From: Rhodospirillales bacterium
Lineage (GTDB): Bacteria > Pseudomonadota > Alphaproteobacteria > Bin95
Assembly: GCA_038143065.1 (NCBI GenBank)
Contig: JAYQLI010000041.1
Span: forward strand, 1 to 48,604
Direction of reading: 5' to 3'
Length of the DNA stretch: 48,604 bases
Part shown: positions 28,669 to 46,340 of the stretch, in pieces
Layout: the number at the start of each line of letters is the position of its first letter
Position numbering within the stretch: position 1 is the stretch's first letter
Made by a program: the position numbers and the translations under genes
Notes under the pieces: model-generated
Databases searched by the model: none
What the model saw: the letters and a program-made list of their open reading frames with translations, nothing else
What the model was told of the DNA's origin: nothing

Positions 28669-29480
28669 CTCTGATCGCAGGAGCACCCAAGTTTGGTAAA
28701 AGCTGGTACGCGATGGGTCTTGCACACGCGACCTTGCCGCTGATGGACACAGAGTATTGTACATTGCTAATGAGGATAGTGAACGCAGGTTAAAAGACCG
28801 CTACTCAAAAAATTAGCTTTCAGCAAAGTGACAAACTCATATTTCTATCTGGACTGGATAGTGAGCGCTCGTTGCCGCGCGGAGAGCAGGCGCTCAATTT
28901 CTGAAAGCCTGCAAAGACAGCTACTCCTGATCTGGCCTGCATCATTATCGATACAATTCAAGCCGTTCGTAATCCTGCTTTAAAACAAGATTATGCATCA
29001 GTTGAGAATGAGTTTTCTCCACTTCGCAAACTCGCGCATGATTTGGATATTACGATTATCGCTGTTCATCACACCAAGAAAAAAACCGACTTTGAAACTG
29101 AACCTCTAGACCAAATACTTGGCTCACAAGAAATAACAGGAACTGTTGAGACAATATTGATCATGCAGCGTGAACCTCGCAGTCAAAACGTAAATCTATT
29201 CATCACAGGTGAAGACGTCGAAGAGGCAGACGACTATACGCTTGTTTGGAATGGACATGGCTTCAATGAACCCGTCGAGCGTCGCCTCGCCTCTCTTGGA
29301 TCGATGCAGCGGTCAATTTTTGATTACGTAGAGCAAAATCCGCGTTGCACGCAGGCTGCGATTGTCGAACACTTAGGCCGCACCAAGCAGCAGATTAATG
29401 AGGCTGTGGGGCGCTTGTTGGAACTAGGTCTGTTTAAAACTGCAAGTGGCGGAAGATTATTCGTTAATAATACTGCATAA
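28602..29480 (+). CDS. AAA (RepA/AAA_25-like) helicase with C-terminal HTH, frameshifted
   Basis: GAPKFGKSW Walker A, IIIDT Walker B, VHHTKK. Confidence 0.8.
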
Positions 29481-30364
29481 GATAGCCTCTTTACCTTCTT
29501 GACCAATCTTTATTGCAGTCAATAGGGTCAAGAGTATGTGTGCTGATACAATGATATAATTTAGGATTTTGAAATGGCTAAAACTGTGCTGATTACCGCA
29601 GGAGCGAGTGGCATTGGGAGCGCAATGGCAACTCAGTTCGATTTAAGTGGGAGCTACTGTTTGGATCACCGATATTGATCAATCAGCACTTGATAAATGT
29701 CCTAAACACTGGCGAAAAAGTCGCGCAGACGTGCGGTCCGCATCTGAAATGACAGACGTCTTTAGAAAAATTACTGATGAGCTAGGACGGCTCGATGTTG
29801 TTTGTGCCAATGCGGGGACGGCTTTTTGACTAAGCTTAGTTGAAGAACAACCAATAGAAGAGTTCGCAGATTGTTTGGACGTGAATATCAAAGGCGCGTT
29901 TTATACGGCGCGCGGCGCACTCCCAATGATGAAACGACAAGGCAGTGGCTCAATAATTTTTACTTCGTCAACTGCTGGACTACACGGTTTTCCATACCGC
30001 ACCCCATATTGCGCTAGCAAATGGGCGGTGATTGGCATGATGAAAACTATAGCAATGGAAGCTGGTCCCTACGGTGTACGCTCAAACGTAATCGCGCCTG
30101 GATGCGTCGAAGGCGAACGCATCGACGGTGTGATAGAACGAGAAGCCAGACAAAAACATACAACCCCTGAAGCGGTTCGTGCAGCATATCAGGCAGGAAC
30201 ATCACTACGCAGCTTCGTAAGTGCTCAGGACATTGCCAATATGGCTGTCTTCTTATCTTCAGATCGGGCCAAAATGGTAAGTGGACAAGTAATTTCGGTA
30301 GACGGATATACCGAAAACCCTGATCCAAAAGTCTGCTAGACAGATTTAATTAGACGAAGGTGCA
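29388..30364 (+). repeat. ~975-bp direct repeat copy 1 (helicase 3' end plus SDR gene)
   Basis: Aligns with 33758-34733 with scattered substitutions. Confidence 0.95.
29574..30339 (+). pseudogene. SDR oxidoreductase copy 1 (disrupted)
   Basis: TAGASGIG, YCASK; frameshifts/stop near 29645 and 29828. Confidence 0.8.
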
Positions 30365-30626
30365 AAGACTTTTTTGAAATGGATTTTAACTGAGGTTTTT
30401 ATCTCTGCGATCTGAATTGGCATTTCGTGAATGCAGTCGTGTGTGGATGCAACTGTTCAGTTGTCCAAATTGGTTCTCTCTAAATATTTAGAATATCGGT
30501 GGTTTAAGTGAGTATGAAGACAATGTTCATATGCTCCCTAAAACCTAACCCTGCTGCGAAAACGGCGGGGTTATCTTTTGTGATGTGGTTTGGCCTACCT
30601 GACTGCGACTGCGCCGCCAACGGCTA
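30362..30626. repeat. ~265-bp block copy 1 (5' part of phage-like membrane gene plus hairpin)
   Basis: Aligns with 39545-39809; includes the taaccctgctgcgaaaacggcggggtta hairpin. Confidence 0.93.
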
Positions 30627-31252
30627 AGACCACAGCGTTTTTTTTTGTGCGTTCAGATAAATCTTTATCGAAGTTTAAACCGCCAACCTCATTGGTTGTT
30701 ACTTCCTTTAGAATTGATCCGATAGTAGGTACCGTTGGAGGCTTTTTTGTATTCCAAAAATCAGAACGCATCATGGATTTTGGGCAATGAATATGAACTT
30801 CAGTAATTGTGATAATAAGAACGCAAATTGGCGTGTGCCCGTCGTGCTCAAAGCTCATGCGCACATTGTTTGCGGCGGTGATTTTTGCAGTTCCATTTAC
30901 TCTAACAACATCGTTCACCCCGTGCTCACCATGAACATCAACGATATGCGGCCATCTTGTAAAATATTACGCAAGCTATCGATGCGATTGTTTCCGCGCC
31001 AATCTGGCATATGAAGAGTTTTTTCATCAATTATACGCACAACCGGCTTCTTGTCGCGCTTGAGATGACATCAGTGCTCTCACTACCAACTGTAGACATA
31101 ACGCAGAATTTGGACGCTGCGATCCATTCTGAATAAAGAGGTGTAAGGACAGGAGAAACTTTTCTGCGCGCGCCGTCACCAACTTCACCATACAGGCACT
31201 CTAGTTCAGACAATTCTTGTATAAATTCAAAATCCATTGTCTGCTTACTCAT
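30624..31252 (-). CDS. FMN-binding pyridoxamine 5'-phosphate oxidase-like protein (MSMEG_1061 type), frameshifted
   Basis: LYGEV...KVSPVLTPLYSEWI, PDWRGNNRIDSLRNI, RVNGTA, HCPKSMMRS; ends KKTLWS* if the A9 run is A8. Confidence 0.8.
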
Positions 31253-31443
31253 TTCTTAAAAACATATCGATTGTGATACCCAAGATACTTTCGCCGTTTG
31301 ACAAATACGTCAATTATTCTTTGCCCAATCTTGTCCTCAAACCCCCGCTACATGGGGATCATCGGGGGGCCTTCGAAGTTTATCTTTGACCCACCTCAAT
31401 CCTAATGCCTAAAGTAATGGTAGAACTTCAACAGGAGCACCAA

Positions 31444-31887
31444 ATGTCGGAACTCAAAGGTGGCTGCTTGTGCGGCTCTGTGCGCTTTGCATGCAAGTCT
31501 GCACCAATTGCTTCTTATGCGTGCCATTGCCGATTTTGTCAGCGTAGCTTGGGTACTGCGTATCGAGCCGCAATGTCGTTCAATCTTGACGACGTGCAAT
31601 TTAACGATGGTGAATTACGGACTTATACTTACAAAAGCGATGAACACGGCCGCGAATTATATATTCATTTTTGTCCAACATGTTCGACACAAGTTACAGC
31701 AACAACTGAACGGTTTCCTGATCGCCGCGTAATGATGATAGGGACGCTGGATGACCCAAGCCAGATTGATGTGAATACTCACATGTTTGCAGATGAAAGT
31801 TTCCACTGGGTATCTGCACATGATGATGATGTCGTTTATGCAAAACACCGAATGAACGAGGATGGCTCTGCTGCTGAGCCATTATGA
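31444..31887 (+). CDS. GFA/CENP-V family protein
   Basis: GGCLCGSVRF, CHCRFCQR, FCPTC; AGGAG RBS. Confidence 0.9.
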   Translation: MSELKGGCLCGSVRFACKSAPIASYACHCRFCQRSLGTAYRAAMSFNLDDVQFNDGELRTYTYKSDEHGRELYIHFCPTCSTQVTATTERFPDRRVMMIGTLDDPSQIDVNTHMFADESFHWVSAHDDDVVYAKHRMNEDGSAAEPL

Positions 31888-31890
31888 AAA

Positions 31891-32839
31891 ATGAAATTTG
31901 TGGTTATTACAGTTTTATTTCTTCTGGTTCTACTGGCCCTATCATTTATCGTAACTCAATTATTAGCATTTTACGCAAGGCGAAAGCTTCCAGCGGAAGG
32001 TCAGTTCACAGAAGTGAATGGTGGAAAAATCCATTGGACTGAACAAGGCGAAGGGTGAAACAATTATCCTCATTCACGGGTTGGGCGGCAATCACCATAA
32101 TTTCAACTACACGGTTTCAGAACTTAGTCGGAAATATCATGTTGTGAGCATTGATAGACTTGGGTCAGCATGGTCAACACGAGAAGACTTTAGCTACGCA
32201 ACGTTGGATGCTCAGGCTGATGCAATTGTTGACTTTATAAACAAACAAAGTTTCGAACGCCCATTACTGGTCGGACATTCGCTTGGTGGCGCTTTTTCAT
32301 TATCTATTGGGATAAGACATCCTGATAAAATCAGAGGCCTTGCACTGATATGTCCAGCATCCATGGCGATAGAGAATACACCAGATATTTTTCGCGACTT
32401 AGAAAGTCATAGCTCAGGTGGCAGACTATTCCTTGCAAATTTTTTGTCTGGGCCGTTTGGTTTGTTGAAGCAAAAGAGGTTTTTGACAGAGGTTTTCAAA
32501 CCAGAACCAATCACACATGATTTTGACATCAAAGGGGGCGCGATACTCAGTCGACTACCAAGTCAATTTCAAACTACTTGCGAAGACCTAATTGCCGCAA
32601 AGGCATCGCAGAATGATGTCGTATTGAAGTTGCCGCAACTGAATGTGCCAACTCATGTTATTTTTGGAGAGGATGACGTCATTTTAGATGCACAAAAACA
32701 CGGAGTAGCCTTCAGCCAAGCAACAGGAGCTGGATTAGTGATGATCCCAAAGACCGGGCACATGCTTCCCGTAACTCAGCCCAAACTGTGCAATAAGTTT
32801 ATTGAAGATGTTATGTCAGCTACTAAGGTCATCCGATGA
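31891..32839 (+). CDS. Membrane-anchored alpha/beta hydrolase, frameshift near 32053
   Basis: N-terminal TM, IHGLGG, GHSLGG, GEDD, GHM. Confidence 0.88.
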
Positions 32840-32874
32840 GATGTTAAGCCTCACTTAAATGTATTGGAGAAAAT

Positions 32875-33303
32875 ATGGCTGAGTTTACTGGAAAATGTTT
32901 GTGTGGCCAAGTTTCATACAAATCCCATGTAAAGCCCACATTGATGCTCAATTGTCATTGTGAAGATTGTCGAAGGTCAACGGGTGCAGTTTATAGTACA
33001 AACGTGTTCGTAGAAGATGATAAAGTAGAGATTATTGGTACAACTTCTGAGTACTCACACATTGCAAAAAGTGGGAATACTATGACCAAACATTTCTGTG
33101 AAAACTGCGGTTCTCTTATGTTTGGTTACAGTTCAGGGAGAAATAATATTGTTTCAATACGTGCTGGGACCATTGATCAGATCGAAGTAATTGAACCTAC
33201 GATGAATGTATTTGTTGATAGCAAAGTCATATCTACTCCTATTGATAGAAACCTTGCCGTAGCAGGTGGAATGCCAATCGGTACACCTTGGAAAAATGAT
33301 TGA
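32875..33303 (+). CDS. GFA/CENP-V family protein
   Basis: GKCLCGQV, CHCEDCRR, FCENCG. Confidence 0.9.
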   Translation: MAEFTGKCLCGQVSYKSHVKPTLMLNCHCEDCRRSTGAVYSTNVFVEDDKVEIIGTTSEYSHIAKSGNTMTKHFCENCGSLMFGYSSGRNNIVSIRAGTIDQIEVIEPTMNVFVDSKVISTPIDRNLAVAGGMPIGTPWKND

Positions 33304-33312
33304 AATAGTTCG

Positions 33313-33633
33313 TTAGTCGGTTTGCCGTTCCTGACAATCGATTTGTACTCCACGATAGTCTATTGCTTTTGAAATAAAATCACCTCTCCAAGATTTTCTT
33401 ATTTCTTGCCAGACAGGTAGACATGCATCCTTGGCCTCTTTGTTATCATACTCAAATATATGACAAAGTTAATGCTTCTCCTCCCTATTCCATATGCGTG
33501 TAGTTGTATAACGGTGTAGCCCCAAGTTATGTAGTTCGGACAAGTAATTATGCTTAACCTTATCCCATTCAGCGACACTCAGCTTTAATTCGTTTTCACT
33601 GAGAAACGTTTGTATCGTTACATTTATAAGCAT
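33313..33633 (-). CDS. Small dimeric alpha+beta barrel-like protein (one internal TAA)
   Basis: TRIWN...IFEY...AC motif shared with 43836-44170. Confidence 0.6.
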
Positions 33634-33665
33634 TATCACATGGCTTCTTTGGCTATTTTGTATCA

Positions 33666-33757
33666 AGCATGACCTAACTACAGACCATAAGCAACAATCA
33701 CATGTCTCTTGAGTGCCGCTGTGGGCAGCGCAAGCTAGTTTCAGTAAAAGAGTTGAT
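33666..33757 (+). repeat. Z-repeat copy 1 (5' fragment of a Zn-ribbon gene; antisense promoter)
   Basis: accataagcaacaatcacatgtctcttgagtgccgctgtggg...gagttga. Confidence 0.92.
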
Positions 33758-34733
33758 CAGCAGATTAATGAGGCTGTGGGTCGCTTGTTGGAACTAGGTC
33801 TGTTTAAAACTGCAAGTGGTGGGAGATTATTTGTTAATAACTCTGCATAAGATAGCCTCTTTACCTTCTTGACCAACCTTTATTGCAGTCAATAGGGTCA
33901 AGAGCATGTGTGCTGATACAATTATATAATTTGGGATTTTGAAATGGCTAAAACTGTGCTGATTACCGCAGGAGCGAGTGGCATTGGGAGCGCAATGGCA
34001 ACTCAGTTCGATGCAAGTGGGGCTACGGTTTGGATAACTGATATTGATCAATCAGCACTTGATAAATGTCCTAAACACTGGCGAAAAAGTCGCGCAGACG
34101 TGCGGTCCGCATCTGAAATGTCAGACGTCTTTAGAAAAATTACTGATGAGCTGGGACAGCTCGATGTTGTTTGTGCAAATGCGGGGACGGCTGGGCCAAC
34201 AGCCTTAATTGAAGAACAACCGATAGAAGAGTTCGCAGATTGTTTGGACGTGAATATTAAAGGCGCGTTTTATACGGCGCGCGCAGCGCTCCCGATAATG
34301 AAACGACAAGGCAGCGGCTCAATAATTTTTACTTCGTCGACTGCTGGATTGCACGGTTTTCCTTACCGCGCTCCATATTGCGCTAGCAAATGGGCAGTAA
34401 TCGGCATGATGAAAACTATTGCAATGGAAGCTGGTCCCTACGGTGTACGCGCCAACGTAATCGCACCTGGATGCGTCGAAGGCGAACGCATCGACGGCGT
34501 GATAGAACGAGAAGCCAGACAAAAAAGTACAACACCTGAAGCAGTTCGTGCAGCGTATGAGGCAGGAACATCACTACGCAGCTTCGTAAGTGCTCAAGAC
34601 ATTGCCAATATGGCTGTCTTCTTATCTTCAGATCAGGCCAAAATGGTAAGTGGACAAGTAATTTCTGTAGACGGACATACCGAAAACACTGATCCAAAAG
34701 TCTGCTAGACAGATTTAATGAGACGGAGGTGCA
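33758..34733 (+). repeat. ~975-bp direct repeat copy 2
   Basis: Aligns with 29388-30364. Confidence 0.95.
33944..34708 (+). CDS. SDR family oxidoreductase (intact copy)
   Basis: TAGASGIG, NAG, YCASK, IAPG. Confidence 0.93.
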   Translation: MAKTVLITAGASGIGSAMATQFDASGATVWITDIDQSALDKCPKHWRKSRADVRSASEMSDVFRKITDELGQLDVVCANAGTAGPTALIEEQPIEEFADCLDVNIKGAFYTARAALPIMKRQGSGSIIFTSSTAGLHGFPYRAPYCASKWAVIGMMKTIAMEAGPYGVRANVIAPGCVEGERIDGVIEREARQKSTTPEAVRAAYEAGTSLRSFVSAQDIANMAVFLSSDQAKMVSGQVISVDGHTENTDPKVC

Positions 34734-34801
34734 TAGAGAAAAGTTGAGTTGTTACGCTTTGCTGAGTGGTCACTGGATGTGACTAGAACTATTTCCGTGT
34801 T

Positions 34802-35011
34802 ATGTCGTGGCTAAAACAATTCATTTTGAAGCAATTCTTCCCATATGCAGTTGCAATAGTATTGGGATTACAAATCAATGATTTGGCGCTTTTACTTACG
34901 CAAAACTTTGTTCTCTGGTTGCTAATTGTTGCTCCTATATGGGTCGTATTGTGTTATGGAACGCGGTTTATTTTTTGGAAGGCCAGTTGGATTGATAACT
35001 GGATTAGGTGA
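34802..35011 (+). CDS. Small membrane protein
   Basis: 69 aa with two hydrophobic stretches; partial copy at 46076-46177. Confidence 0.6.
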   Translation: MSWLKQFILKQFFPYAVAIVLGLQINDLALLLTQNFVLWLLIVAPIWVVLCYGTRFIFWKASWIDNWIR

Positions 35012-35052
35012 TCTTGAATGCAGCGTACTCTTTTCATTGGAGCAATTTGAGC

Positions 35053-35460
35053 ATGCGAAAATTTGGAGCAATCATTTTATCATTGGGACTTACAACGCCC
35101 GCCTCTGCAGCAGACTATCTTTGCGATAGCTTCGAGGTTGCATTTGAATTTTATCGATCGAATGTAGCTTTAGAAGAATTTGATGTTGCTGGATGGAGAG
35201 CACAGCCCTTCATACTCAGGGATTTTCCAGTCGCACCGTACATTGAGACAGCAGAAGAAGAATACGACCTGATAAATGTCGCAGATGGCCACCAGCGCAC
35301 TACAAGGTGATTTATACCTGCATCAAATGAATACGCTTTACCAGATGTATGAAATACTTAATCCCCATCCGATCACTGGTAAGTTCACGATATATAATAT
35401 CCGTACAGAAGTATCTTATGTAAGCACCTGTGAGCGACGTCGGATCATTCAAAGCTATTA
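35053..35460 (+). CDS. Secreted hypothetical protein, frameshifted
   Basis: MRKFGAIILSLGLTTPASA signal peptide; two overlapping ORFs. Confidence 0.5.
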
Positions 35461-35474
35461 ACATAGGTTAATAA

Positions 35475-35846: not shown

Positions 35847-35974
35847 CTAATTTGACTTTCCTGAGTTGGCCTCACTTTTTTGCCAACTGAGTGGTACATT
35901 TTCTGTACTGGTTTCATCAGTCTGCACAAATAGGCTGCTCATACTCGTACAGCCAGAATAAGGAGCAATAAACA

Positions 35975-36587: not shown

Positions 36588-37058
36588 CTACTGCGGCCTA
36601 GCAATTAAATCGTCTGCTCTGACCTTTGCAATCGCTGAACGTGCTTTCGTTTCTAGCTTTGCAAAGCCATTGAGTGTTCGGGGATCGGAAGCAGTCTGGT
36701 TGAGGGACATGCTGCGGATAACCGCAAGCTGCCTTCGTTCGAGTGTATCAATGACCGATAACAGCGGATTGGGGATTGGTGTCCCACGCTTGTTTTCGAC
36801 CATCATTCCGACTTCGTCTAACTCTGTTTGAGCAGTGCGAATGTCGGCTTCCATGCGTACTATTTTAGCCAGCAAGATCAGGTCCATGTCACGCCAATCT
36901 TCGCGTGCGCGGGCGCGTGAAAACTGGTGCCAGATTGTACGCTCTAAATCTGATCGCAGTTCGATCCCATCAGGGAGCGGCACATCAGACATCACACCTG
37001 CGAAACCTTGAACGGCTGCAGCGGTGCTGGATTTGTCTGTTCGACGTTTCTGAGACAT
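36588..37058 (-). CDS. terS: Terminase small subunit (P27-like)
   Basis: W...LILLA...GMMVENKRGTPIPNPLL; lies between the cos-like site and terL. Confidence 0.8.
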   Translation of the reverse strand: MSQKRRTDKSSTAAAVQGFAGVMSDVPLPDGIELRSDLERTIWHQFSRARAREDWRDMDLILLAKIVRMEADIRTAQTELDEVGMMVENKRGTPIPNPLLSVIDTLERRQLAVIRSMSLNQTASDPRTLNGFAKLETKARSAIAKVRADDLIARPQ

Positions 37059-37222
37059 GGATAGTTGTGTCCGATTTTTAATGTTGAAATATTGGGCAGA
37101 TATTGACGAAAACCGCACAAACTTAATGCAAAACCTTAAGTTAATCTATGCAAAGCAAATTTATTTTTGACTAAGCAGTAAAATGTAATCGACCATATAG
37201 AGGCCAACTAAAGGAGCTTACT

Positions 37223-37357: not shown

Positions 37358-37458
37358 ACTCATGAAAGTTTATTTGCAAACGTGGTGGAACTTAGCTTCA
37401 TGGAAACTGTGCTACTGTACGTCAGTTTAATGTTCTTCGACTACACAGCTAGCCCCGA

Positions 37459-37537
37459 AAAATCCGTAAACGCAGAAACAGATGAGAGTGGGCGCCGGTT
37501 TCTGTGTTAACGACTTTCGTCTTTGACCCACCCCCCC
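37459..37537 (-). other. cos-like packaging region
   Basis: gggggggtgggtcaaa...accggcgccc...tttctgcgtttacgg between the HNH remnant and terS, as in HK97-type cos phages. Confidence 0.6.
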
Positions 37538-37794: not shown

Positions 37795-37858
37795 TAAATT
37801 AAGCTGGGATGCTTTGGATCGATAGGCCAGCCATCGTTTCCAATTGTGCGACGTGTCG
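37795..37858 (-). pseudogene. C-terminal remnant of phage packaging HNH endonuclease
   Basis: TIGNDGWPIDPKHP, a typical HNH tail upstream of cos/terS. Confidence 0.65.
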
Positions 37859-38015: not shown

Positions 38016-38107
38016 AAGATGACCCAACTGCAGGCCATAATCAACAATCACATGTCCCTCGAGTGCCGCTGTGGGCATCGCAAACTCGTGTCTGCTAGAG
38101 AGTTGAT
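38016..38107 (+). repeat. Z-repeat copy 2
   Basis: MTQLQAIINNHMSLECRCGHRKLVSARELI. Confidence 0.92.
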
Positions 38108-38109
38108 AC

Positions 38110-38171
38110 GTAAGTTGCTTACCCGCAGCAACACCTGTCTTGATCGCCGCCAATGCTGTTAGCGGGTCCAT
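38110..38171 (-). pseudogene. 5' fragment of a phage-type late gene
   Basis: MDPLTALAAIKTGVAAGKQL, cut off at the Z-repeat. Confidence 0.55.
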
Positions 38172-38475: not shown

Positions 38476-38479
38476 GTTT

Positions 38480-38788: not shown

Positions 38789-38790
38789 CG

Positions 38791-38814: not shown

Positions 38815-38844
38815 TCTGTGTCGTTTTTCGAGGTCAATTTGCTG

Positions 38845-39435
38845 ATGCATAAATTGAAGCATCTTCTACTCATAATTTCGTTGGTTTGGAGTTCAGCAGT
38901 ATTGGCACTGGAAGAACCAAAGTATTCAATCGTAAAGCAGACAGATGATTATGAAATACGTAAGTATGGTGATCGACTGGCGGTAGAAACGATAGAAGGC
39001 AGTGGCGAAGACAGAGCGTTTTCTCTGCTGTTTAAGTATATCTCAGGGGCTAACAAAATTAACACCAAAGTCGATATGACTACCCCAGTCACGCAGTCCA
39101 CCAAGGTTGAAATGACCACACCAGTCGCCCAAGAAGATGTAAATGGCAAACGCGTGATGCGCTTCTTTCTGCCCTCCAAATTTACAATTGAAAGTGCTCC
39201 ACGTCCAACTTCAGATGCTGTAAGACTTGTAATTGTAAAAGGTCAAACATATGCGGTCGCGAAGTATTCAGGAAGGTCAAGTGATCAAAACTTTGTTCGT
39301 AACGCTCGCAAACTGATTGATGGGTTAGAGCGAGATGGATTGCAGGCAATCGGCGAACCCATCAAAGCGACTTTCAATGGACCACTAACACCATTTTTTC
39401 TGCGTCGAAACGAAGTAATGATACCTGTCAGATAA
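38845..39435 (+). CDS. SOUL family heme-binding protein
   Basis: EEPKY...YEIRKY, LFKYISGAN, MTTPV, MRFFLP, RRNEV; signal peptide. Confidence 0.92.
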   Translation: MHKLKHLLLIISLVWSSAVLALEEPKYSIVKQTDDYEIRKYGDRLAVETIEGSGEDRAFSLLFKYISGANKINTKVDMTTPVTQSTKVEMTTPVAQEDVNGKRVMRFFLPSKFTIESAPRPTSDAVRLVIVKGQTYAVAKYSGRSSDQNFVRNARKLIDGLERDGLQAIGEPIKATFNGPLTPFFLRRNEVMIPVR

Positions 39436-39456
39436 AGATAATCTAAGTCTCAGCAA

Positions 39457-39651
39457 TTAAGGCATCCGTGTTAGTACCGTTACAAGCATCGCAATGATTG
39501 AAGCTGATGCACCGATCATGATGGCCTCAAGGCGTTTTACGCGGGCAAAGACTTTTTTGAAATGGATGTTAACTGAGGTTTTGATCGCTGCTATCTGAAT
39601 TGTCATTTCGTGAATGCAGTCGTGTGTGGATACAACTGTTCAGTTGTCCAT
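39457..39651 (-). pseudogene. Phage coiled-coil plus TM (XhlA/hemolysin-like) gene with TGA at codon 4; RMP* copy 3
   Basis: MDN*TV...RVKRLEAIMIGASASIIAMLVTVLTRMP*. Confidence 0.65.
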
Positions 39652-39809
39652 ATTGATTCCCTCTAAATATTTAGAATTTCGGTCGTTAAAGTTAATACGA
39701 AGACAATGTTCATATGCTCCCTAAAACCTAACCCTGCTGCGAAAACGGTGGGGTTATCTTTTGTGATTTGGCTCGGCCTGCCTGACTGCGACTGCGCCGC
39801 TAATGGCTA
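39545..39809. repeat. ~265-bp block copy 2
   Basis: Aligns with 30362-30626. Confidence 0.93.
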
Positions 39810-41479
39810 GACGCTATGTATTTTAGGGCCTTGATAACAGGTCAATATCAAACCTCTTGGTATTTTGAGTGGCTAATAAATTCATCTTGTAGGTCGTTTA
39901 CTAAGGTATGGTGCGGCGAAAGCCGCCCTATATTTGCCTTTGGGTGGGTTGTTCGCTTATCCCCTACAGTCCACCCATCGGCATACTGTTATTGCGCCAA
40001 AGCAAATCCATTAATCTCATTATTTAACTATTCTGTTTGAAAGAGGATTTTTGTGCGACTATTAAAATTACTCCGCACCCTCGGCTATTTGTGTATCTGT
40101 TGCTACGTGAACACATGTTTTATTCTATAAATAATCAAGACAAGATTTCAGCTGCAACTTTGGTTAACGTAAATAAAAAATAAAAATAATTGAGGCAGTA
40201 CTATGACTTATGTAACGCAGAAATTGCGGGCTATAAATCTATTTGATCCATCTCAAGCGCAAAGATTGACTGATCCAAAACTTCAACGTTTTGCCTTGGC
40301 GCTAATTATATTGTTTCAGAGTTACCGATATTAGTTTGGTACGTTGCAACACGCTTTTAGAAATTTTCGCAAAACTAACTCTTCTTATTCTTAGGGTTTC
40401 TAGCTAAAAGTTTTGCCTATGCGGAGAAAACGAGATTGGATACTGGTTTGTGTCCGCTAGGCCTTAGCTATTGACTGACCCCGTGTATCATGTATCGATA
40501 TGAGACTTACCAGTGCTGTGTCTGGGGGGACATTTGATGCTGACTAAAAATAAATTTGAACAACGGAAAATAACGTTCACTGAGTTTAGTGAGAGTTGTC
40601 GATCAAAATTTGCGGCAAAAATTTCTAGCAAGCGCGATCATGAAGGCAATCCTTTGCTTGATGATCTAAAAGTGAAGCAGCAACTCAAGTTGCATAAGGA
40701 TGCCTTGGATAAGGTAGGCGAACTATAAGCTCCAATGGTACTATCGTATCCAAGTGCTTCCACGCTCTCAATGTCATCACTGTGGCATAATTATTGCTGC
40801 AAGGTATTCCGCAAGTGGGGGAAAACAAATGACAAAAGAAAATGAGAATTTGATAGCAAGCGACAACCCGATCGCAAGCCTGTCCCATGACCAAAAAATT
40901 CAATTTACTTCTTCAAGGTATCTGGGTGACCTAAAGACGTCTCGACGAAATGCCACCGAAGCAGTCCGTACAAGTGAGTTTGACATCACTGAGAGAGATG
41001 TGAATACCAATATGTCCGATCGCTAGGTTGCCCCCCAGCCCTAAAATGCATCGTTTTATTTCATTTTTCTGAATTATTGCATTTCACAACGATGGTTAAT
41101 TTCTTTGACGTTGCCAAACGCGGCCAAGCCGTGCTTTTCTCCAAATATGGCTTTTGATGTTTCTAATACGACCAAAATTTTATCCGCAGCTTTGCAACGT
41201 GTTGCGAGGCTGGAGCCATCTTTGACGCGCGATGAAAAGGAAACACCAGCACAGACCGTCGCTAAGGAGTGACAGTCTCTCTCAGCAACGACGCCAAGAT
41301 GCACATAATGAAAGATACGCTGAAGTGACGCCAAAGCCTTTAGGATGATCGCCACCTGAAACGCTAACAGAAACATCAGCACGTTTTAGTGTCCTGACCA
41401 CTATTGAACATGTGAACGCAAAAAAATTTCATTTTTGCACTAAACAAATAAAAAAAAGTCGTTTTTGCTATTCGAGTGC

Positions 41480-41506
41480 TAAAACGCCTAGCTCTGATGC
41501 CGTTAA
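41480..41506 (+). promoter_or_regulatory. Sigma-28 (FliA) promoter
   Basis: TAAA-N15-GCCGTTAA (consensus TAAA-N15-GCCGATAA), ending 20 bp before the flagellin ATG. Confidence 0.75.
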
Positions 41507-41525
41507 GGTTATCGGAGGGTATTCT

Positions 41526-42359
41526 ATGGCGAACATTGGTGTTTCAAATTCCGTGTATCAAATCAACACTGCGTTGACGAAAACATCACAGGATGTCTCT
41601 CAAAATATGACACGCATTGCCGCTGGTAATAATTCAGCGGTCGCAAGCGATCAGGCGTCCATAACTGCAGTGAAAAATACTTTCTTAACTGATGTCGCAG
41701 CAACACAAAGTGCAATAAAGTCTATTGGGCTTGTAAAAGGATTTCTAGCAACGGCTATCGCAGCCGTTGATAATATCTCAAATCGTAATGCGAGAATGTT
41801 TGAATTGGCTATCATGGGGGCCAACGGCACTAATACCGCAACTGAAAGTGCTGCAATTGATGCCGAAGCAGAAGCACTAATTGACGATATGTTACTCTCA
41901 GCTGTTGAAGCCAATTACAAAGGTAAAACGATTTTTGACGGTGGTTACGATTTACACTTTTCTTTGGGCGGCCGTGGACAAAAATCGTCAGTTTATATTG
42001 GTACGATTAACGTAATGGAAATCGGCTTGTATCATTACGGAACACAAAATCTGATCGTGAAGCCCAGCGATGGCTTAGCAGATGCTGATGCAATGACTTC
42101 CATACTGGACGTATTTCAGGAAGAAATAAATAAACTGAGAACTGAACTTGCCTCTGGATATGCAGTCGTGGAACAAGCACAGAGTACACTTACTGATTTA
42201 AACACAGAGTATAAAATCAGTGTAGGTGCAGTGGATGACCTAAATTTCTCAGCAGAAGCCGCATTACTTGCTAAAAACCAATTTTTACAAGATGCGGCCA
42301 ATGCAATGCTCGCCCAAGCAAACCAAGCGCAAAGCGGCCTGATTGCACTTATTTCGTAA
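41526..42359 (+). CDS. fliC: Flagellin (short, divergent)
   Basis: RMFELAIMGANGT...YKGKTIFDG; C-terminal DLNFSAEAALLAKNQFLQDAANAMLAQANQ; GGAGG RBS. Confidence 0.88.
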   Translation: MANIGVSNSVYQINTALTKTSQDVSQNMTRIAAGNNSAVASDQASITAVKNTFLTDVAATQSAIKSIGLVKGFLATAIAAVDNISNRNARMFELAIMGANGTNTATESAAIDAEAEALIDDMLLSAVEANYKGKTIFDGGYDLHFSLGGRGQKSSVYIGTINVMEIGLYHYGTQNLIVKPSDGLADADAMTSILDVFQEEINKLRTELASGYAVVEQAQSTLTDLNTEYKISVGAVDDLNFSAEAALLAKNQFLQDAANAMLAQANQAQSGLIALIS

Positions 42360-42782
42360 TCCGATAACGAATTTTTAACGTGAAGCAGCGTTCAACCTAA
42401 TTCTAGACATAAGTGGTTTTAAGGCTGTGCGAAAAATGGTGAGAAGAACACCACCCAAATTTAACTTTTGAAGGATGCTCTATAGAGGCGGGTTGGTGAT
42501 GCACTCGCACAAATTGACCACGGTCGCGCAGCGCACGCGAGACCCTAACACAGACCGAATTGATCAAGTCGCGCACGCACGCGCGAGGCAGGTCAGAACA
42601 CAATAAAGCACAGTGTCGCGCGCGGGCGCGAGGGGAAAACAAGCTTTGGCGCTACAATGCGCGGGTGCGCGCGGGCGTTGCATTTTAGCATTGCACCGTC
42701 AACAAAAGGGTGGATACAAAGGTGGATCGAAATAACTAATAACAACTAATATATTGTTTTATATTATTTTTATTGGAAACAA

Positions 42783-42797
42783 TGGTGCCCCAGAGGG
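42783..42797 (-). repeat. att core (tRNA 3'-like), with arm-like GGTGGAT direct repeats at ~42709-42727
   Basis: tggtgccccagaggg is identical to 14753-14767. Confidence 0.8.
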
Positions 42798-43089
42798 TTA
42801 TGTTCCCTACAAAGGCATCGCATCAAAGCTAACACTCTGTTTTCATTACAACCATGCGTGTGCAGTTCATGTCAATACGGCACTAAATGGTCAGTAATCT
42901 CTTATCGTTACTAGTATAGGGAAGCACAGGAGTGTGGCTTCTTAAGTATTACTCTTAGAGTTAAGATGTTTTCTTCCACTACTTGTACAAACTTAAAACT
43001 TAGACACACCCCATGCAGGACCCAGTGTGGGTATGGGTGATAGAACGTACTTGCTGCAGCACATAGATAGGGTTCTCAGAGTGGAGAGC

Positions 43090-43555
43090 TTAATAAAACT
43101 TTGATCGACGCTCCAGACTCCTCTTAGAGTATATCTTATCCTTATCATAAAACTCATCGAATGATGGAATATCTGTACCAAGCTCAACAAGAAAAGCTTA
43201 CTCTTTTTGTGAAGATGTGCGCTAATGGCGGAAGCTTTCAGCGTTATCTAAAGTTGTTGTCTTAAAAACTATTATCTGGTCAGTGCCGATCGCTGCAAAG
43301 TGACTAAATACTTGATCGCCACATCTCTCACAACGCTGTATGGAGTGACCGCTGCCACTGCCAGATGGTCCCACTGTCGTCACCAGCTTACCTTTATCCA
43401 CCACAAAGTTGCTCGCTTCTATCAGTGAATGAACAACAAATGCGGATGCCGTGTAACGCTGGCAGAGCTTACAATGACATGCGTGTGGAACATCGGTTCA
43501 TCAGTAATGTGGTGTGAACATCGCCACAAGAGCAACCGCCTTCATGTCTTTCCAT
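43090..43555 (-). CDS. GFA/CENP-V family protein, frameshifted
   Basis: GGCSCGDV, ACHCKLCQR, RCERCG, HIFTK. Confidence 0.82.
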
Positions 43556-43587
43556 AGTGAACCTCACAACTTTTATGCTACCATCTC

Positions 43588-43678
43588 ACGATGACCCAAC
43601 TCCTTACCATAAGCAACAACCACATGTCTCTTGAGTGCCGCTGTGGGCATCGTAAACTGGTGTCAGTCAAAGAGTTGA
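43588..43678 (+). repeat. Z-repeat copy 3
   Basis: MTQLLTISNNHMSLECRCGHRKLVSVKEL. Confidence 0.92.
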
Positions 43679-43689
43679 ACAGTTGTTTC

Positions 43690-43749
43690 TTTGCTCTCCA
43701 GCCACGACGTAGCCAGTCCAGTCAAGCTGGGTAGTATTTGTCCGATCAT
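43690..43749 (-). pseudogene. 5' fragment of a phage holin-like gene
   Basis: MIGQILPSLTGLATSWLESK, cut off at the Z-repeat. Confidence 0.5.
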
Positions 43750-43835
43750 GCTGTGATCTTTCCATAATTTGGTGATTTGGAGATTTTGAATTGTCGTGCT
43801 AGCGTGATCGCAGCCAACACAAAGAGGAGCAACTT

Positions 43836-44170
43836 GTGTCCAATACTGCGCTGATGAACTACTCAACATGATTTTGCCAATAACGAAGACTTGAAGCTTT
43901 ATCTAGAGCGACAAGACGCGGCGTTTTCACCAGAAGTCACAAACTTTTTACAGACGCGGGTATGTTGCGCAGAGTTGTAACGCGGATTTGGAATAAACAA
44001 CACGCTTTTCGTGTTGGTATATTGTTCGAGTACGCGATCGGCGGCTTAAAGATTGTAAACCCCTCCTAGAACAATATTACCTTTCGGCCGTCGAGGGTCT
44101 TGCTACTAAAGTGGAGGGTTCCCGTGGAGTGGTTGTTCACGAATTTGTCTCAGATGAGTTTCAAGATTAA
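43836..44170 (+). CDS. Small dimeric alpha+beta barrel-like protein, frameshifted
   Basis: GAGGAG RBS plus GTG; RVVTRIWNK...GILFEY; SRGVVVHEF. Confidence 0.65.
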
Positions 44171-44177
44171 CAGCTAA

Positions 44178-44318
44178 CTATTTCTTAGCAGCCCCGCCAG
44201 AGAAGCCAAAGTAAGCACCAACCAGTGCCGATAGTGATCCATACATCATCATCAGCACAGCATCCGCTTCGGCCATTCTGGCGAGGTCTATTAACACAGC
44301 AATCGTAGAGACGATCAT
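44178..44318 (-). pseudogene. 3' part of a phage-type membrane (holin-like) gene
   Basis: MIVSTIAVLIDLARMAEADAVLMMMYGSLSALVGAYFGFSGGAAKK*. Confidence 0.55.
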
Positions 44319-44476
44319 TTAAGTGGCCCACAGGCGCTGCCCACCCGCCAGGCTACCCATTGTTACAAACTTAGCTAAGCCTACTGTGGACCACGTTAGA
44401 GAGTCTCTGTGGGTGTATTTATGGTTTGACTGGGAAGAGTTTGACAGAGGCCAGTATGTCCAGCCTCCGTTTTATT

Positions 44477-44608
44477 TTATGCAGCAGAAGACTTAGCTGC
44501 TTGCTTGGCTTCATAAGCCGCTTTCTTCTCTTGGTATTGCTCTTCTGTTAGGTTGTGCCAGCCAACGCATTTACCTGTTGGGCTACGCCCACATCCGCAA
44601 TCAGACAT
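44477..44608 (-). CDS. 43-aa CDGSH-like iron-sulfur miniprotein
   Basis: MSDCGCGRSPTGKCVGWHNL...; AAGGA RBS; too short for the ORF track. Confidence 0.7.
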   Translation of the reverse strand: MSDCGCGRSPTGKCVGWHNLTEEQYQEKKAAYEAKQAAKSSAA

Positions 44609-45267
44609 ATCAGTATCCTTCATGATTATGCCAGAGAGTTAGTCGGAAAATATTTCTATTCAATGGCTTGCACCGCACATTAACTGTGGAGCCTTGCACA
44701 TAATTTTGTGTCATGAAATTGAACGAATCCAGTAGTCAGAAATTAATAGAAGTTACAAGCAAAAGGCATCCACAAATTCTGTGGGTAAGTCGGTGGATAC
44801 ATCTTCAAATATCCATCAAAACCTAAGAAATATAGGATATAGGTTTCATTGCACAAATTTTAGGCATAAAAATAAGTATCTGAATTTATTAGTGATTATT
44901 TTTAAGAATAATACAACGAAAGCCCTTTTATAAAGGCGATTTAAATACAAAATGAATTATCAAAATTTGGTCAAACAAAGTTAAATGTCTAAATTACTTA
45001 CATTTTTGACCAATCTCGTTGCATAAACTGGCATATTCCTCAACTACCACTTTACCTGTGCGTAAATTGCTAAACCGTCAGAAAAATCAGACGTCAATTA
45101 AGCCCGTCAAAGTTAACTGATTGGTCATGACGTGACCCTTGACACCGCCAAATCTTGCTCTTGCGCATATGACAAGAAGCACGTGATGGTGGTTTGTCGC
45201 AATTAAGGGAAGCATTGTTTTTCGCCAGCCAACGGACGCTGGTGATTTGCCAATATTCAATTTCAAC

Positions 45268-45498
45268 TTAATCTCGTGACTTTTTACCTAAAACGGCACC
45301 CCAGGTCGTAACGCAAAACGGAACACAGTAGGTGAGTAAAACCTTTAAAAATGGTGGAAATTCACCTTTCGAAATGACATCCCCATGATTTATTATTGTT
45401 AAAAGTGTGCCCACGATACACGCAGTAAAAAATGCTTTTTTGGGTATGCCATCTGTCTTTGCCAGATTTATAAATTCACTGACACTAATGGTTGTCAT
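45268..45498 (-). CDS. nrtS: NrtS-family small membrane protein
   Basis: IVGTLLTIINHG...LTYCVPFCVTTWG. Confidence 0.72.
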   Translation of the reverse strand: MTTISVSEFINLAKTDGIPKKAFFTACIVGTLLTIINHGDVISKGEFPPFLKVLLTYCVPFCVTTWGAVLGKKSRD

Positions 45499-45515
45499 AT
45501 ACTATGCCGTTAATT

Positions 45516-45815
45516 TTATGCTTCATTAAAGTCTAACTCTACCTCGCCCTGAAAGTGCATTTCTTTGTTGGGTAATGCTTTCGTAAATCGTACAATTTCT
45601 TGGGCTATTATTGCTTCAATATCTTTTTGAACTTTCGCATTCTCAAACTCCCAGACTACCGTTGATACATGTGGTTTATCTTCATCAACTACCAACCGGA
45701 AGCGTGCGCCCTTTTTTCCTTGGAGAAGCATTGGCCATTTCGTATGGAGAACACTGTTGAACATTTCAGCATCTTCCACAGAGGTAAAAGTTCGCACAAA
45801 AATCTTAATCCTCAT
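45516..45815 (-). CDS. Small dimeric alpha+beta barrel-like protein
   Basis: RTFTS..DAEMF, KPHVSTVVWEF; AGGA RBS. Confidence 0.7.
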   Translation of the reverse strand: MRIKIFVRTFTSVEDAEMFNSVLHTKWPMLLQGKKGARFRLVVDEDKPHVSTVVWEFENAKVQKDIEAIIAQEIVRFTKALPNKEMHFQGEVELDFNEA

Positions 45816-45845
45816 TTCTTGTCCTGATATTATCTAATTAAATTC

Positions 45846-45937
45846 AACATTACCTAACTCCACACCATAAGCAACAACCACATGTCCCTAGAGTGTCGTT
45901 GTGGGCATCGCAAACTGTTGTCAGCGTAAGAGTTGAT
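45846..45937 (+). repeat. Z-repeat copy 4
   Basis: accataagcaacaaccacatgtccctagagtgtcgttgtgggcatcgcaaact...gagttga. Confidence 0.9.
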
Positions 45938-46075
45938 CGGTGTTAAACCCCACCGCTACGATCTATGAGGTTGCCAGTGTTGATTGAACCATACGACGAC
46001 CAACGATAGTGCCATTTTCAATAGGCTAAAGAAGCTTAAGTGGCCTATGGACTCAACATGAACTATATTAAGTCT

Positions 46076-46177
46076 ATGACGTCGCTTACTCAATTCATGC
46101 TGAAGCAATTCTTCCTATGCAGTTGCAATAGTATTGGGATTACAAATCAATGATTTGGCATTTTCACTTTCGTAAAA
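46076..46177 (+). pseudogene. Truncated copy of the small membrane protein gene 34802-35011
   Basis: tatgcagttgcaatagtattgggattacaaatcaatgatttggc is shared exactly. Confidence 0.85.
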
Positions 46178-46340
46178 TCAAATCAATCTGTCGAAAAATG
46201 TAGAATAACAGGGTAACTCAGCAATCGATGCAGTCGAGTTTTTGCCCCTACCCGTAAACGACAGAATCAAAGAAAAAGTAGCCCAGAGTAGCCCTGAAAA
46301 CAAAAGGCTCAGCGTGTTTCAGCTAAGCCTTTGAAAATAA

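What the first reader, a model, noticed from the sequence alone, without database searches (positions are those of the whole stretch)
29388..46200. Integron-like cassette platform built from an eroded phage scaffold
Seen: short pieces of phage-type genes stay in cos-phage order on the - strand (XhlA-like 39651, MDPLTA gene 38171, HNH tail 37858, cos ~37500, terS 37058, terL stub 35846; also holin-like 44318 then 43749). Nearly every gap holds a small, compact, usually opposite-strand cargo gene (GFA, alpha+beta barrels, SOUL, sRNAs). Several scaffold pieces recur 2-4 times beside different cargo. No capsid, portal or tail genes and no attC/intI are visible. Inference: the stubs are kept as recombination anchors, promoters or terminators that let cassettes be exchanged and stacked, possibly mobilised by a helper phage through terS/cos. 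The closest known concepts are phage morons, PICIs, tycheposons and VEIMEs, none of which I know to use reiterated gene stubs this way.
Basis: partly seen in the sequence, partly recalled or inferred. Interest (0 to 1): 0.9.

Follow-up and report, generated by a model that had tools for sequence, protein, structure and literature searches.

The report
Eroded phage remnants carrying cargo genes
This stretch is a worn-down pile of phage-like elements in a marine bacterium: most virus genes are cut to short ends, the small passenger genes between them survive, and related strains carry the same pieces in different orders, which looks like ordinary decay and recombination and not a dedicated cassette machine.

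Summary
The observation largely holds. On the - strand lie an intact small terminase (36588-37118), a large-terminase stub (aa 1-104), two HNH C-terminal tails and short ends of three other phage-family genes. Between them, mostly on the + strand, sit small genes: MarR, SDR, two GFA, an alpha/beta hydrolase, SOUL and a flagellin-like gene. Several pieces recur 2-4 times. No portal, protease, capsid, IntI or attC-like hairpin was found.

Eighty IMG/VR contigs hold intact relatives: HK97-like HNH-cos-terS-terL-portal-protease-capsid modules with small genes in the gaps. Their terS-terL gap runs from 5 to 5,728 nt, in 28 sequence types. Twenty-seven metagenome contigs and Logan contigs of three metagenomes show the window's modules reshuffled, often at a 4x repeated 5' segment of a 71-aa zinc-ribbon gene ("D2").

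D2 is truncated at several different positions, does not fold, and is rarely seen next to a recombinase. Some stubs carry stop codons, and terS is broken in 4 of 21 close relatives.

Best reading (0.65): tandem build-up and deletional decay of phage or satellite elements in a flexible genomic island, with homologous and illegitimate recombination among the remnants. The "integron-like platform" reading is only partly supported. It is a new variant of a known kind, of moderate interest.

The parts
29043..29480 (+). MarR-type winged-helix regulator gene (145 aa)
   Evidence: PF12802 E 1.1e-6
29388..30368 (.). Repeat block A, copy 1: 3' end of MarR plus a frameshifted SDR gene (ORF 29875-30339)
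   Evidence: 93% identical over 983 nt to 33758-34737; 5 gaps against the intact copy
30362..30630 (.). Repeat block B, copy 1
   Evidence: 91% identical to 39545-39812
31405..31887 (+). GFA-family gene 1
   Evidence: PF04828 E 7.7e-28; pN/pS 0.07-0.11 against C49 and L126
32018..32839 (+). alpha/beta hydrolase gene
   Evidence: PF00561 E 1.5e-22; pN/pS 0.28-0.41; with GFA1 replaced by 27 nt in run X12
32875..33303 (+). GFA-family gene 2
   Evidence: PF04828 E 4.1e-32; pN/pS 0.14-0.45; preceded by a D2 copy in L121, L127 and L129
33669..33757 (+). D2 stub 1: first ~30 codons of a 71-aa zinc-ribbon gene, stop at codon 3, joined to the 3' part of MarR
33758..34737 (.). Repeat block A, copy 2, with the intact SDR gene at 33944-34708(+)
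34786..34905 (.). Repeat block C, copy 1 (copy 2 at 46060-46177)
   Evidence: 84% identity; also in L121 and L127
35008..35310 (+). ORF of 100 aa, no family hit; homologue of 135 aa in L121
35475..35846 (-). Large-terminase stub (TerL aa 1-104 plus an unrelated tail)
   Evidence: PF03354; the junction at 35518 is shared with L123 and L126
35975..36241 (+). ORF of 88 aa in the terS-terL gap
   Evidence: 94% aa identity to L052; paralogues in L059, L060, C5 and C7; pN/pS 0.17
36588..37118 (-). Small terminase gene, intact (176 aa)
   Evidence: PF05119; 89-98% identical in 21 IMG/VR contigs; pN/pS 0.04-0.23, 14 of the 15 comparisons at or below 0.11
37457..37535 (-). Conserved 79-nt non-coding element between HNH and terS (candidate cos or leader)
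   Evidence: sharp 5' edge and a small hairpin with compensatory changes (seen by eye)
37800..37850 (-). HNH endonuclease C-terminal tail 1 (aa 103-119 of 120)
38019..38107 (+). D2 stub 2
38112..38171 (-). First 20 codons of the 147-aa 'MDPLTA' phage-family gene (phrog_32327, function unknown)
38818..39435 (+). SOUL haem-binding family gene
   Evidence: PF04832 E 6.2e-41; a contig of run X1 covers 38704-39529 with 1 difference
39463..39627 (-).
   Evidence: no Pfam or PHROG hit
40504..40728 (+). ORF of 74 aa that sits beside the HNH 3' end in relatives
   Evidence: 9 loci hit; pN/pS 0.27
40731..40787 (-). HNH C-terminal tail 2 (aa 88-106)
40754..41382 (.). ORF of 90 aa (+, 40754-41026) and ORF of 102 aa (-, 41074-41382), no family hit; collinear with L043, L045 and L053
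41412..42359 (+). Flagellin-like gene (315 aa), absent in some population variants
   Evidence: PF00669 and PF00700; joint 41391>42580 in runs X5 and X12
43225..43497 (-). Short GFA-family gene or fragment
   Evidence: pN/pS 0.07-0.13
43591..43679 (+). D2 stub 3
43690..43822 (-). First 42 codons, frameshifted, of a 90-aa phage-family gene (phrog_2524, function unknown)
44181..44318 (-).
   Evidence: no family hit
45849..45977 (+). D2 copy 4, longer (~43 codons), with in-frame stops

Best explanation
Region 29.4-46.2 kb is the eroded interior of a flexible genomic island in a marine or estuarine alphaproteobacterium, probably Rhodobacteraceae.

ORIGIN. It was built from several related HK97-like, HNH/cos-type temperate phage or satellite elements. 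These elements already carried small passenger genes (morons) in the gaps between their head genes.

DECAY. The elements piled up side by side. Deletions, some at microhomologies, then removed most structural genes and left short gene ends. The passenger genes and one terS stayed intact under purifying selection.

RESHUFFLING. The leftover repeats are substrates for ordinary homologous and illegitimate recombination. These include the D2 5' segments, blocks A-C and the HNH tails. Recombination may occur within the chromosome or with incoming relatives. This yields cassette-like presence/absence and reordering in the population without a dedicated recombinase.

WHAT IS SHOWN AND WHAT IS INFERRED. 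Shown: homology of the stubs to intact genes, variable cargo between the same anchors, population rearrangements, and constraint on the cargo. Inferred: tandem build-up, the order of the deletions, and the recombination pathway.
For: 1. INTACT RELATIVES EXIST. Of the 21 IMG/VR contigs with terS 89-98% identical:
- 12 hold a full 505-aa terL, 4 are cut by the contig end, 4 have an internally deleted terL, and 1 (L052) has a stub.
- L035, L046 and L047 carry HNH-terS-terL-portal-protease-capsid.
- In L035 small ORFs, mostly on the opposite strand, sit in nearly every gap.

2. THE GAPS ARE KNOWN-STYLE HOTSPOTS. 77 of 80 loci have both terS and terL ends. The gaps run 5-5728 nt, and the 65 gaps of 150 nt or more fall into 28 clusters.

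3. INTERMEDIATE STAGES OF DECAY OCCUR.
- L036, L037 and L039-L042 keep terL and portal but only aa 1-27 of the protease.
- L052 fuses terL aa ~1-53 to the 44318 piece. The same joint, 44319>35687, is in runs X1 and X12.
- The window's terL breakpoint at 35518 is shared with L123 and L126.

4. BLOCK ORDER. In the window the order is 3|2|1 relative to the canonical order 1 (cos, terS, terL), 2 (HNH tail/ORF74, 40171 piece, block B, MDPLTA), 3 (44318 piece, 43762 piece). Each block keeps its inner order. This is what tandem copies with deletions would give.

5. THE JUNCTIONS LOOK ILLEGITIMATE. D2|MarR, D2|MDPLTA and D2|43680 have short imperfect overlaps (read by eye).

6. THE ASSEMBLY HOLDS FOUR MORE DEFECTIVE COPIES (C12, C5, C7, C11) and no capsid or protease of this family.

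7. CONSTRAINT. Cargo pN/pS is 0.07-0.45. terS is 0.04-0.23, with 14 of the 15 comparisons at or below 0.11.

8. NO DEDICATED MACHINERY. No IntI, no attC-like fold, no tRNA.

9. PRECEDENT. The tycheposon preprint describes islands grown by successive integrations that leave degenerate remnants (passages read).
Against: - D2 truncation points cluster (three window copies end within about nt 90-104, and a second group ends near nt 135). All truncated copies keep the 5' end. That is more orderly than random decay predicts.
- All five remnants in the assembly keep the same HNH-cos-terS-terL-5' end. This could mark a satellite family and not decayed phages.
- The window's terL stub has only 3 amino-acid changes among 23-38 nucleotide differences to close relatives. 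Either the truncation is recent or the stub is still constrained.
- No integrase or att sites delimit the supposed tandem units.
- The junctions 33757/33758 and 38107/38108 were not seen in any independent contig I could inspect.
Confidence: 0.65

Rival explanations
1. Dedicated cassette platform. The reiterated gene stubs, above all the D2 5' segment, are maintained recombination sites at which cargo genes are inserted, exchanged and stacked, by analogy with attC sites of integrons.
For: - D2 occurs 4 times in direct orientation with unrelated flanks.
- Among 25 D2 copies with both flanks there are 14 left types, 17 right types and 21 combinations. Flank types are shared across partners, for example L0-R7-L1-R2-L2-R5-L10.
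- Joints at D2 edges (43683>45944, 43589>38018, 45840>33666) occur in Logan contigs of run X5. The first is also in X12.
- The window's copies share exact words of only 14-29 nt, below k=31.
- GFA2 is flanked by D2 copies in L121, L127 and L129.
- Cargo differs between the same anchors.
Against: - No recombinase lies in 29-48.6 kb. An integrase occurs in 2 of 27 D2 contigs and in 0 of 80 IMG/VR loci. There is no IntI.
- D2 ends at five or more different positions and does not fold.
- The copies are only 74-87% alike, so they are not homogenised.
- No strict four-combination set was found (0).
- The other module boundaries share no motif. A trial motif matched once in the window.
- The intact 71-aa D2 gene is an ordinary member of the phage family and lies next to HNH or int.
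Confidence: 0.12
2. Functional phage satellite or satellites. The HNH-cos-terS(-terL N-terminus) module is the kept core of a cos-type satellite family. The family is packaged by a helper phage, and the island or parts of it still move that way. The stubs are incidental.
For: - terS is intact and constrained.
- A conserved 79-nt element lies upstream of terS.
- All five copies in the assembly keep this end and none keeps capsid or protease.
- A DUF6538 integrase (broken) lies at 13510-14701, and primase remnants lie at 27835-28668.
- L141 is a 9,159-nt unit with a 194-nt terminal repeat and carries int, D2, an HNH-like gene and a Prim-Pol/D5 primase.
Against: - The integrase is split into 181-aa and 146-aa pieces.
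- terS has frameshifts or stops on C5 and C7 and a stop in 4 of 21 close relatives.
- terL stubs on C7 and C11 have stops.
- No att repeats or tRNA flank the region.
- No helper of this family is in the assembly.
- The one viral-fraction run listed held next to none of the words.
Confidence: 0.13
3. Assembly artefact. Contig C41 is a chimera of co-occurring strains, so the mosaic order is not that of any one genome.
For: - The assembly has 5.5% contamination and 51 small contigs of low coding density beside one 2.86-Mb contig.
- C6 is a 97.7-99% variant of parts of C41 in another arrangement.
- The population is highly polymorphic at this locus.
Against: Independent contigs are collinear with long stretches of the window across module borders:
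- L115 and L140: 31595-33757.
- L053: 37458-38040 (98%).
- L035 and L047: 36238-37216.
- L043, L045 and L053: 39908-41318.
- L132: 42565-43683.
- L123 and L126: 35288-35540, across the terL breakpoint.

Logan contigs of three DNA metagenomes cover every bin from 29000 to 46657 in at least one run.
Confidence: 0.08

Closest known systems
Defective ('grounded') prophages with morons, and variable hotspots between conserved phage genes (P2/P4 hotspots of Rousset et al. 2022, PMC9122126; Ramisetty & Sudhakari 2019, PMC6379469; both seen as search listing and abstract only)
   Same: - Conserved phage genes flank slots with many alternative small cargo genes.
- Structural genes are lost while the cargo is kept under selection.
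   Different: - Here the flanking genes themselves are cut down to 20-104-codon ends.
- Several remnants are interleaved.
- The cargo is metabolic or of unknown function, not recognisable defence systems. The PADLOC library was not searched.
Tycheposon-built islands of Prochlorococcus (Hackl et al. preprint 10.1101/2020.12.28.424599; passages read)
   Same: - Islands grow by successive integration, which pushes older elements inward.
- Degenerate remnants and repeated partial target copies are scattered through the island.
- Some elements carry terS or a capsid gene; others carry cargo.
   Different: - No tRNA or partial tRNA lies in the window.
- The repeated piece is the 5' end of a protein gene, and it lies inside elements (next to int or HNH), not at their edge.
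- The integrase family was not compared.
Integron cassette array (features recalled, not taken from a call)
   Same: - Direct repeats separate compact genes, most of them in one orientation.
- Cassettes are present or absent in the population.
   Different: - No IntI.
- The repeat does not form an attC-like hairpin.
- The repeat is a coding 5' fragment with variable ends.
Mosaic exchange between phages and defective prophages by relaxed homologous recombination (De Paepe et al. 2014, PMC3945230; search listing and abstract only), and the modular/linker view of phage evolution (recalled)
   Same: Short, diverged shared segments act as crossover points between otherwise unrelated modules. This fits the many-partner D2 junction.
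   Different: No phage recombinase gene was identified here, and exchange with an infecting phage was not observed.
cos-type PICIs, capsid-forming PICIs and VEIMEs (recalled)
   Same: - terS, and possibly cos, without a full virion gene set.
- Integrase and primase remnants lie nearby.
   Different: - The integrase is broken.
- There are no att borders.
- The stretch is larger and more scrambled than a single satellite.
- Helper dependence is untested.

Membership tests
Integron | Integron integrase IntI | tested here: not met
   TIGR02249 over the whole assembly: best 82.2 bits against a cut-off of 265
Integron | attC sites: imperfect inverted repeats that fold as a hairpin | tested here: not met
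   The four D2 copies, both strands, folded as DNA: z-scores -0.80 to +1.05, no long hairpin. RYYYAAC-like words at the D2 start were seen by eye only.
Integron | Promoterless cassettes in one orientation behind a common promoter | not tested
   Most cargo is on the + strand. Promoters were not mapped.
HK97-like HNH/cos phage (defective prophage) | HNH - cos region - terS - terL order with homology to intact relatives | tested here: met
   HNH tail 37850-37800, 79-nt element, terS, terL aa 1-104 in that order on the - strand
HK97-like HNH/cos phage (defective prophage) | Portal, protease and capsid genes | tested here: not met
   No hit in the window at E<=0.01 with the L035 proteins. The element is therefore defective.
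Phage satellite (PICI-like) | Intact integrase and flanking att repeats | tested here: not met
   Integrase split into 181-aa and 146-aa ORFs at 13510-14701. No flanking direct repeats were found that delimit a unit.
Phage satellite (PICI-like) | Replication module (primase/rep) | tested here: inconclusive
   Only a 99-aa ORF with Zn_Ribbon_Prim and a 119-aa ORF at 27835-28668. No hit with the L141 primase.
Phage satellite (PICI-like) | Packaging by a helper phage | not testable with these tools
   Needs induction and virion sequencing
Tycheposon-type island | tRNA target with repeated partial tRNA copies | tested here: not met
   ARAGORN: 0 tRNA genes in the window. Rfam: 0 matches at gathering score.
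Moron/hotspot architecture | Many unrelated inserts between the same conserved genes across relatives | tested here: met
   28 clusters among the 65 terS-terL gaps of 150 nt or more, from 77 loci

The most novel reading that the evidence does not exclude
The first ~90-135 nt of the 71-aa zinc-ribbon gene (D2), and perhaps other kept gene starts, form a maintained capture-and-shuffle joint. Cargo genes enter, leave and stack there in a wild Rhodobacteraceae-like population. The mechanism would differ from integron IntI/attC recombination: a site-preferring break or an unrecognised recombinase. The surviving cos-terS module could give occasional export through related phages.
Probability: 0.12. 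Interest if true: 0.8.

Novelty: new variant of a known kind. Interest (0 to 1): 0.45.

Why it matters
The region gives a concrete, population-sampled picture of how a flexible genomic island in an abundant marine bacterium is made. Phage or satellite elements that already carry passenger genes pile up and lose their virion genes. What they leave behind is a set of expressed-looking small genes separated by short homologous scraps.

These scraps are real rearrangement points in nature. The same modules appear in other orders in contigs of 3 DNA metagenomes from separate studies, in 27 further metagenome contigs and in 21 close IMG/VR contigs.

If the clustering of breakpoints in the zinc-ribbon gene proved to be site-directed, it would be an integron-like gene-capture system without IntI or attC. 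As the evidence stands, it shows how far plain decay plus recombination can mimic a cassette platform. It also identifies a widespread, uncharacterised family of HK97-like marine elements with a strikingly variable terS-terL slot.

Tried and rejected
- attC reading of the 4x repeat: rejected. There is no hairpin, and the repeat is homologous at protein level to intact 66-100-aa genes on C6, C10, L137 and others.

- 'All relatives share the terL stub': my first reading was wrong. One search shows that terL runs on in the relatives, and only L052 has a stub.

- 'All D2 copies end at one site': rejected, which shows ends at about nt 69, 84, 86, 90-104 and 135. Window copy 4 extends to about nt 129.

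- A shared motif at breakpoints (GAG.TTG..CAG): one match in the window, dropped.

- Promoter-bearing stub idea: weakened. Conservation starts only about 10 nt before the D2 ATG. scan_promoters_terminators was not run.

- Tandem terL stubs as a general feature: a second N-terminal hit in 4 of 79 loci. Three of these are adjacent hits that look like frameshifts, and one (L068) has a separate piece. Tandem stubs do occur on C5, C7 and C11.

- Searches that found nothing:
  - Plasmid collection, near mode: no match.
  - Phage collection with terS: only distant Burkholderia and Ralstonia phage hits of 35-38% identity.
  - Same-genus genomes: the region was not found by DNA in 0 of 9, and terS was not found in 0 of 9.
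  - Genome contigs gave only 3 loci.

- Pfam and PHROG gave nothing for ORF88, ORF100, ORF90, ORF102, ORF99, ORF74, the D2 protein, the block B protein and the 44318 protein.

- RNA run X15 holds contigs on parts of the region. Contigs show neither strand nor level, and the library may hold DNA, so I make no expression claim.

- Window 46658-48604 had almost no cover in the laid runs. I draw no conclusion from that.

- Structure prediction, complex prediction, the protein-atlas search and the PADLOC library were not used.

- Prior description in print: I searched 'tycheposons'; Rhodobacteraceae + prophage + terminase small subunit + genomic island; flexible genomic island + Rhodobacteraceae; phage satellites + hotspots + P4-like + anti-phage; and morons/terminase/prophage remnants/homologous recombination/mosaic. 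None of the listed papers describes this element family. Supplements were closed and might hold relevant tables.

Full report
SETTING

The window is a whole contig (C41, 48,604 nt) of a 4.63-Mb assembly of 52 contigs. One contig of 2.86 Mb is densely coding: 84% of it lies in frames of 150 codons or more. Most of the 51 small contigs are not (7-91%), and C41 stands at 63%. Within the window this share falls to 0.35-0 from 34 kb onward. The assembly is rated 97.6% complete and 5.5% contaminated.

WHAT IS IN THE REGION

Pfam finds these genes on the + strand:
- MarR at 29043.
- An SDR at 33944, with a frameshifted duplicate at 29875.
- GFA genes at 31405 and 32875.
- An alpha/beta hydrolase at 32018.
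- SOUL at 38818.
- A flagellin-like gene at 41412.

On the - strand it finds an intact small terminase (36588-37118) and a 123-codon ORF with the first part of the TerL ATPase domain.

Using proteins of an intact relative as queries, the stubs resolve as follows:
- TerL aa 1-104.
- HNH aa 103-119 at 37850-37800, and aa 88-106 at 40787-40731.
- The first 20 codons of a 147-aa protein at 38171-38112.
- The first 42 codons of a 90-aa protein at 43822-43690.
- The last 46 codons of a 72-aa protein at 44318-44181.
- aa 20-74 of a 74-aa protein at 39627-39463.

The labels XhlA and holin have no Pfam or PHROG support. Portal, protease and capsid are not found in the window. Capsid and protease are not found anywhere in the assembly. 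No tRNA, no Rfam family and no integron integrase were found.

REPEATS

A 980-nt block (the 3' end of MarR plus the SDR gene) is duplicated at 93% identity. Three shorter blocks occur twice. A ~90-nt segment that I call D2 occurs four times in direct orientation. D2 is the start of a small zinc-ribbon gene. Intact copies encode 66-100 aa on C6, C10 and L137 and about 71 aa in most of 61 database clusters, all without a Pfam family. Two of the four window copies have a stop at codon 3. D2 does not fold as a hairpin on either strand.

RELATIVES

The region and its terS were not found in 9 same-genus genomes. IMG/VR holds 111 relatives of terS. Eighty were kept, and 21 of these are 89-98% identical.

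These relatives show what the scaffold once was: HNH, a conserved 79-nt element, terS, terL (505 aa), portal, protease and capsid. Small ORFs, mostly on the opposite strand, sit in nearly every gap (L035).

Across the family, 77 of 80 loci have both the terS end and the terL start. The gap between them runs from 5 to 5,728 nt (median 1,026). The 65 gaps of 150 nt or more fall into 28 sequence clusters.

Among the 21 close relatives there are graded losses:
- 12 have a full terL, 4 are cut by the contig end, 4 have an internally deleted terL together with a stop in terS, and 1 (L052) has a 53-codon stub fused to the 44318 piece.
- Six keep only 27 codons of the protease.

POPULATION VARIATION

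A word search found the stretch in 20 runs of 11 studies. I laid three DNA runs and one RNA run. Contigs cover 29000-46657, with these joints:
- Between D2 copies: 43683>45944, 43589>38018 and 45840>33666.
- Across the flagellin-like gene: 41391>42580, in two runs.
- Across GFA1 plus the hydrolase: 31346>32825.
- terS to terL: 35831>36588.
- The L052-type fusion: 44319>35687.

A pattern made from D2 found 27 metagenome contigs. In about 11 of them the gene runs on intact. The others end at about nt 69, 84, 86, 90-104 or 135. Among 25 copies with both flanks there are 14 left types, 17 right types and 21 combinations. No strict four-combination set was found. Only 2 of the 27 contigs hold an integrase.

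In those two contigs, and in phage-like relatives, D2 lies inside the element, next to int or HNH, and not at its border. L141 is a 9,159-nt unit with a 194-nt terminal repeat. It carries int, D2, an HNH-like gene and a Prim-Pol/D5 primase.

ORDER OF BLOCKS

Relative to the canonical order 1 (79-nt element, terS, terL), 2 (HNH tail/ORF74, 40171 piece, block B, MDPLTA), 3 (44318 piece, 43762 piece), the window reads 3|2|1 on the - strand, and each block is internally collinear. Both block junctions have the form late-gene start | D2 stub | ... HNH tail. A deletion from a late gene to the D2 gene of the next element in a tandem array would leave exactly that. The junction sequences show short imperfect overlaps (by eye).

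CONSTRAINT

Cargo genes compared with population alleles give pN/pS of 0.07-0.45. terS gives 0.04-0.23, with 14 of the 15 comparisons at or below 0.11. The terL stub gives 0.03-0.24, and about 0.03-0.10 against the close relatives. That last figure mostly reflects the intact lineages it was compared with.

READING

The simplest account is build-up and deletional decay of moron-rich phage or satellite elements, with recombination among the scraps. It explains five things: the homology of every stub to an intact gene, the intermediate forms, the 3|2|1 order, the stops in stubs, and the lack of any recombinase or structured site.

Two things it leaves a little uneasy. D2 breakpoints cluster and only D2 5' ends are kept. 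And all five remnants in the assembly retain the same HNH-terS-terL-5' end. These keep two readings alive at about 0.12-0.13 each: a site-preferring mechanism, and a terS/cos satellite family. A chimeric contig is unlikely for most of the region, because independent contigs are collinear across many borders, including the terL breakpoint. Two junctions (33757/8 and 38107/8) remain unverified.

COMPARISON WITH WHAT IS KNOWN

- Functionally the locus resembles variable hotspots in prophages and satellites (PMC9122126, abstract only).
- It resembles 'grounded' prophages (PMC6379469, abstract only).
- It resembles islands grown by successive integrations with degenerate remnants (tycheposon preprint, passages read).
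- It resembles exchange with defective prophages through short diverged homology (PMC3945230, abstract only).
- It is not an integron: IntI and attC were tested and not met.
- It is not a tycheposon island by the tRNA criterion.
- It is not an intact PICI.

VERDICT

This is a new variant of a known kind, with interest 0.45.

Noticed in passing
window 2252-13695 and 20457-27867; contig C6: C6 carries a 99% copy of 2252-13695 and a 97.7% copy of 20457-27867, joined in a different order. It lacks the integrase and part of the adhesin genes. It is either a second strain's version of the locus or a large duplication.
   Followed up: partly
window 13510-14701 (-): A DUF6538-type tyrosine integrase is split into 181-aa and 146-aa ORFs. 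An 85-nt segment at its start (14681-14765) is repeated, inverted, at 2237-2322 (99%), and is also found on C34 and C35.
   Followed up: partly
window 15357-26696 (-): A run of large ORFs has RTX, cadherin, Big_9, Calx-beta and M60 peptidase domains. It may be one giant adhesin locus, broken or multi-gene.
   Followed up: no
window 46376-46803 and 48171-48589: Inverted repeats of ~430 nt (83% identity) enclose 1.4 kb of low-GC sequence with only short ORFs. This end of the contig had almost no cover in the laid metagenomes.
   Followed up: no
window 37457-37535; loci L035-L053, C12, C49: The 79-nt element upstream of terS has a sharp 5' edge at a G-rich run. It has a small hairpin whose stem changes in a compensatory way between relatives (GAC/GTC, GGC/GCC, CAC/GTG). 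It could be cos, a packaging signal or a leader RNA.
   Followed up: partly
contigs C5 20363-21112, C7 23058-23804, C11 56392-57098: Tandem N-terminal TerL stubs (aa 1-74, 13-46, 1-44, 1-43) occur, some with stops. On C5 and C7 they are interleaved with an ORF88 paralogue and lie near a GFA gene.
   Followed up: partly
locus L141 (9353 nt): The contig has a 194-nt terminal direct repeat, so it is circular or tandem. Its 9,159-nt unit carries a DUF6538 integrase, the D2 gene, an HNH-like gene, a Prim-Pol/D5 primase and several secreted-looking proteins. It is a candidate small integrative element or satellite.
   Followed up: partly
locus L121 3-1874 and 5986-8073: A ~2-kb tandem duplication holds a BLUF-like ORF, a class-IV aminotransferase-like ORF and a thioredoxin-like ORF next to a D2-GFA2-D2 array. 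The names are read from the sequences by eye and were not searched.
   Followed up: no
IMG/VR loci L072, L080, L081, L082, L086: The terS-terL gaps here are 4.9-5.7 kb. A ParB-like motif just after terS recurs in many loci (seen). The contents of these gaps were not annotated.
   Followed up: no
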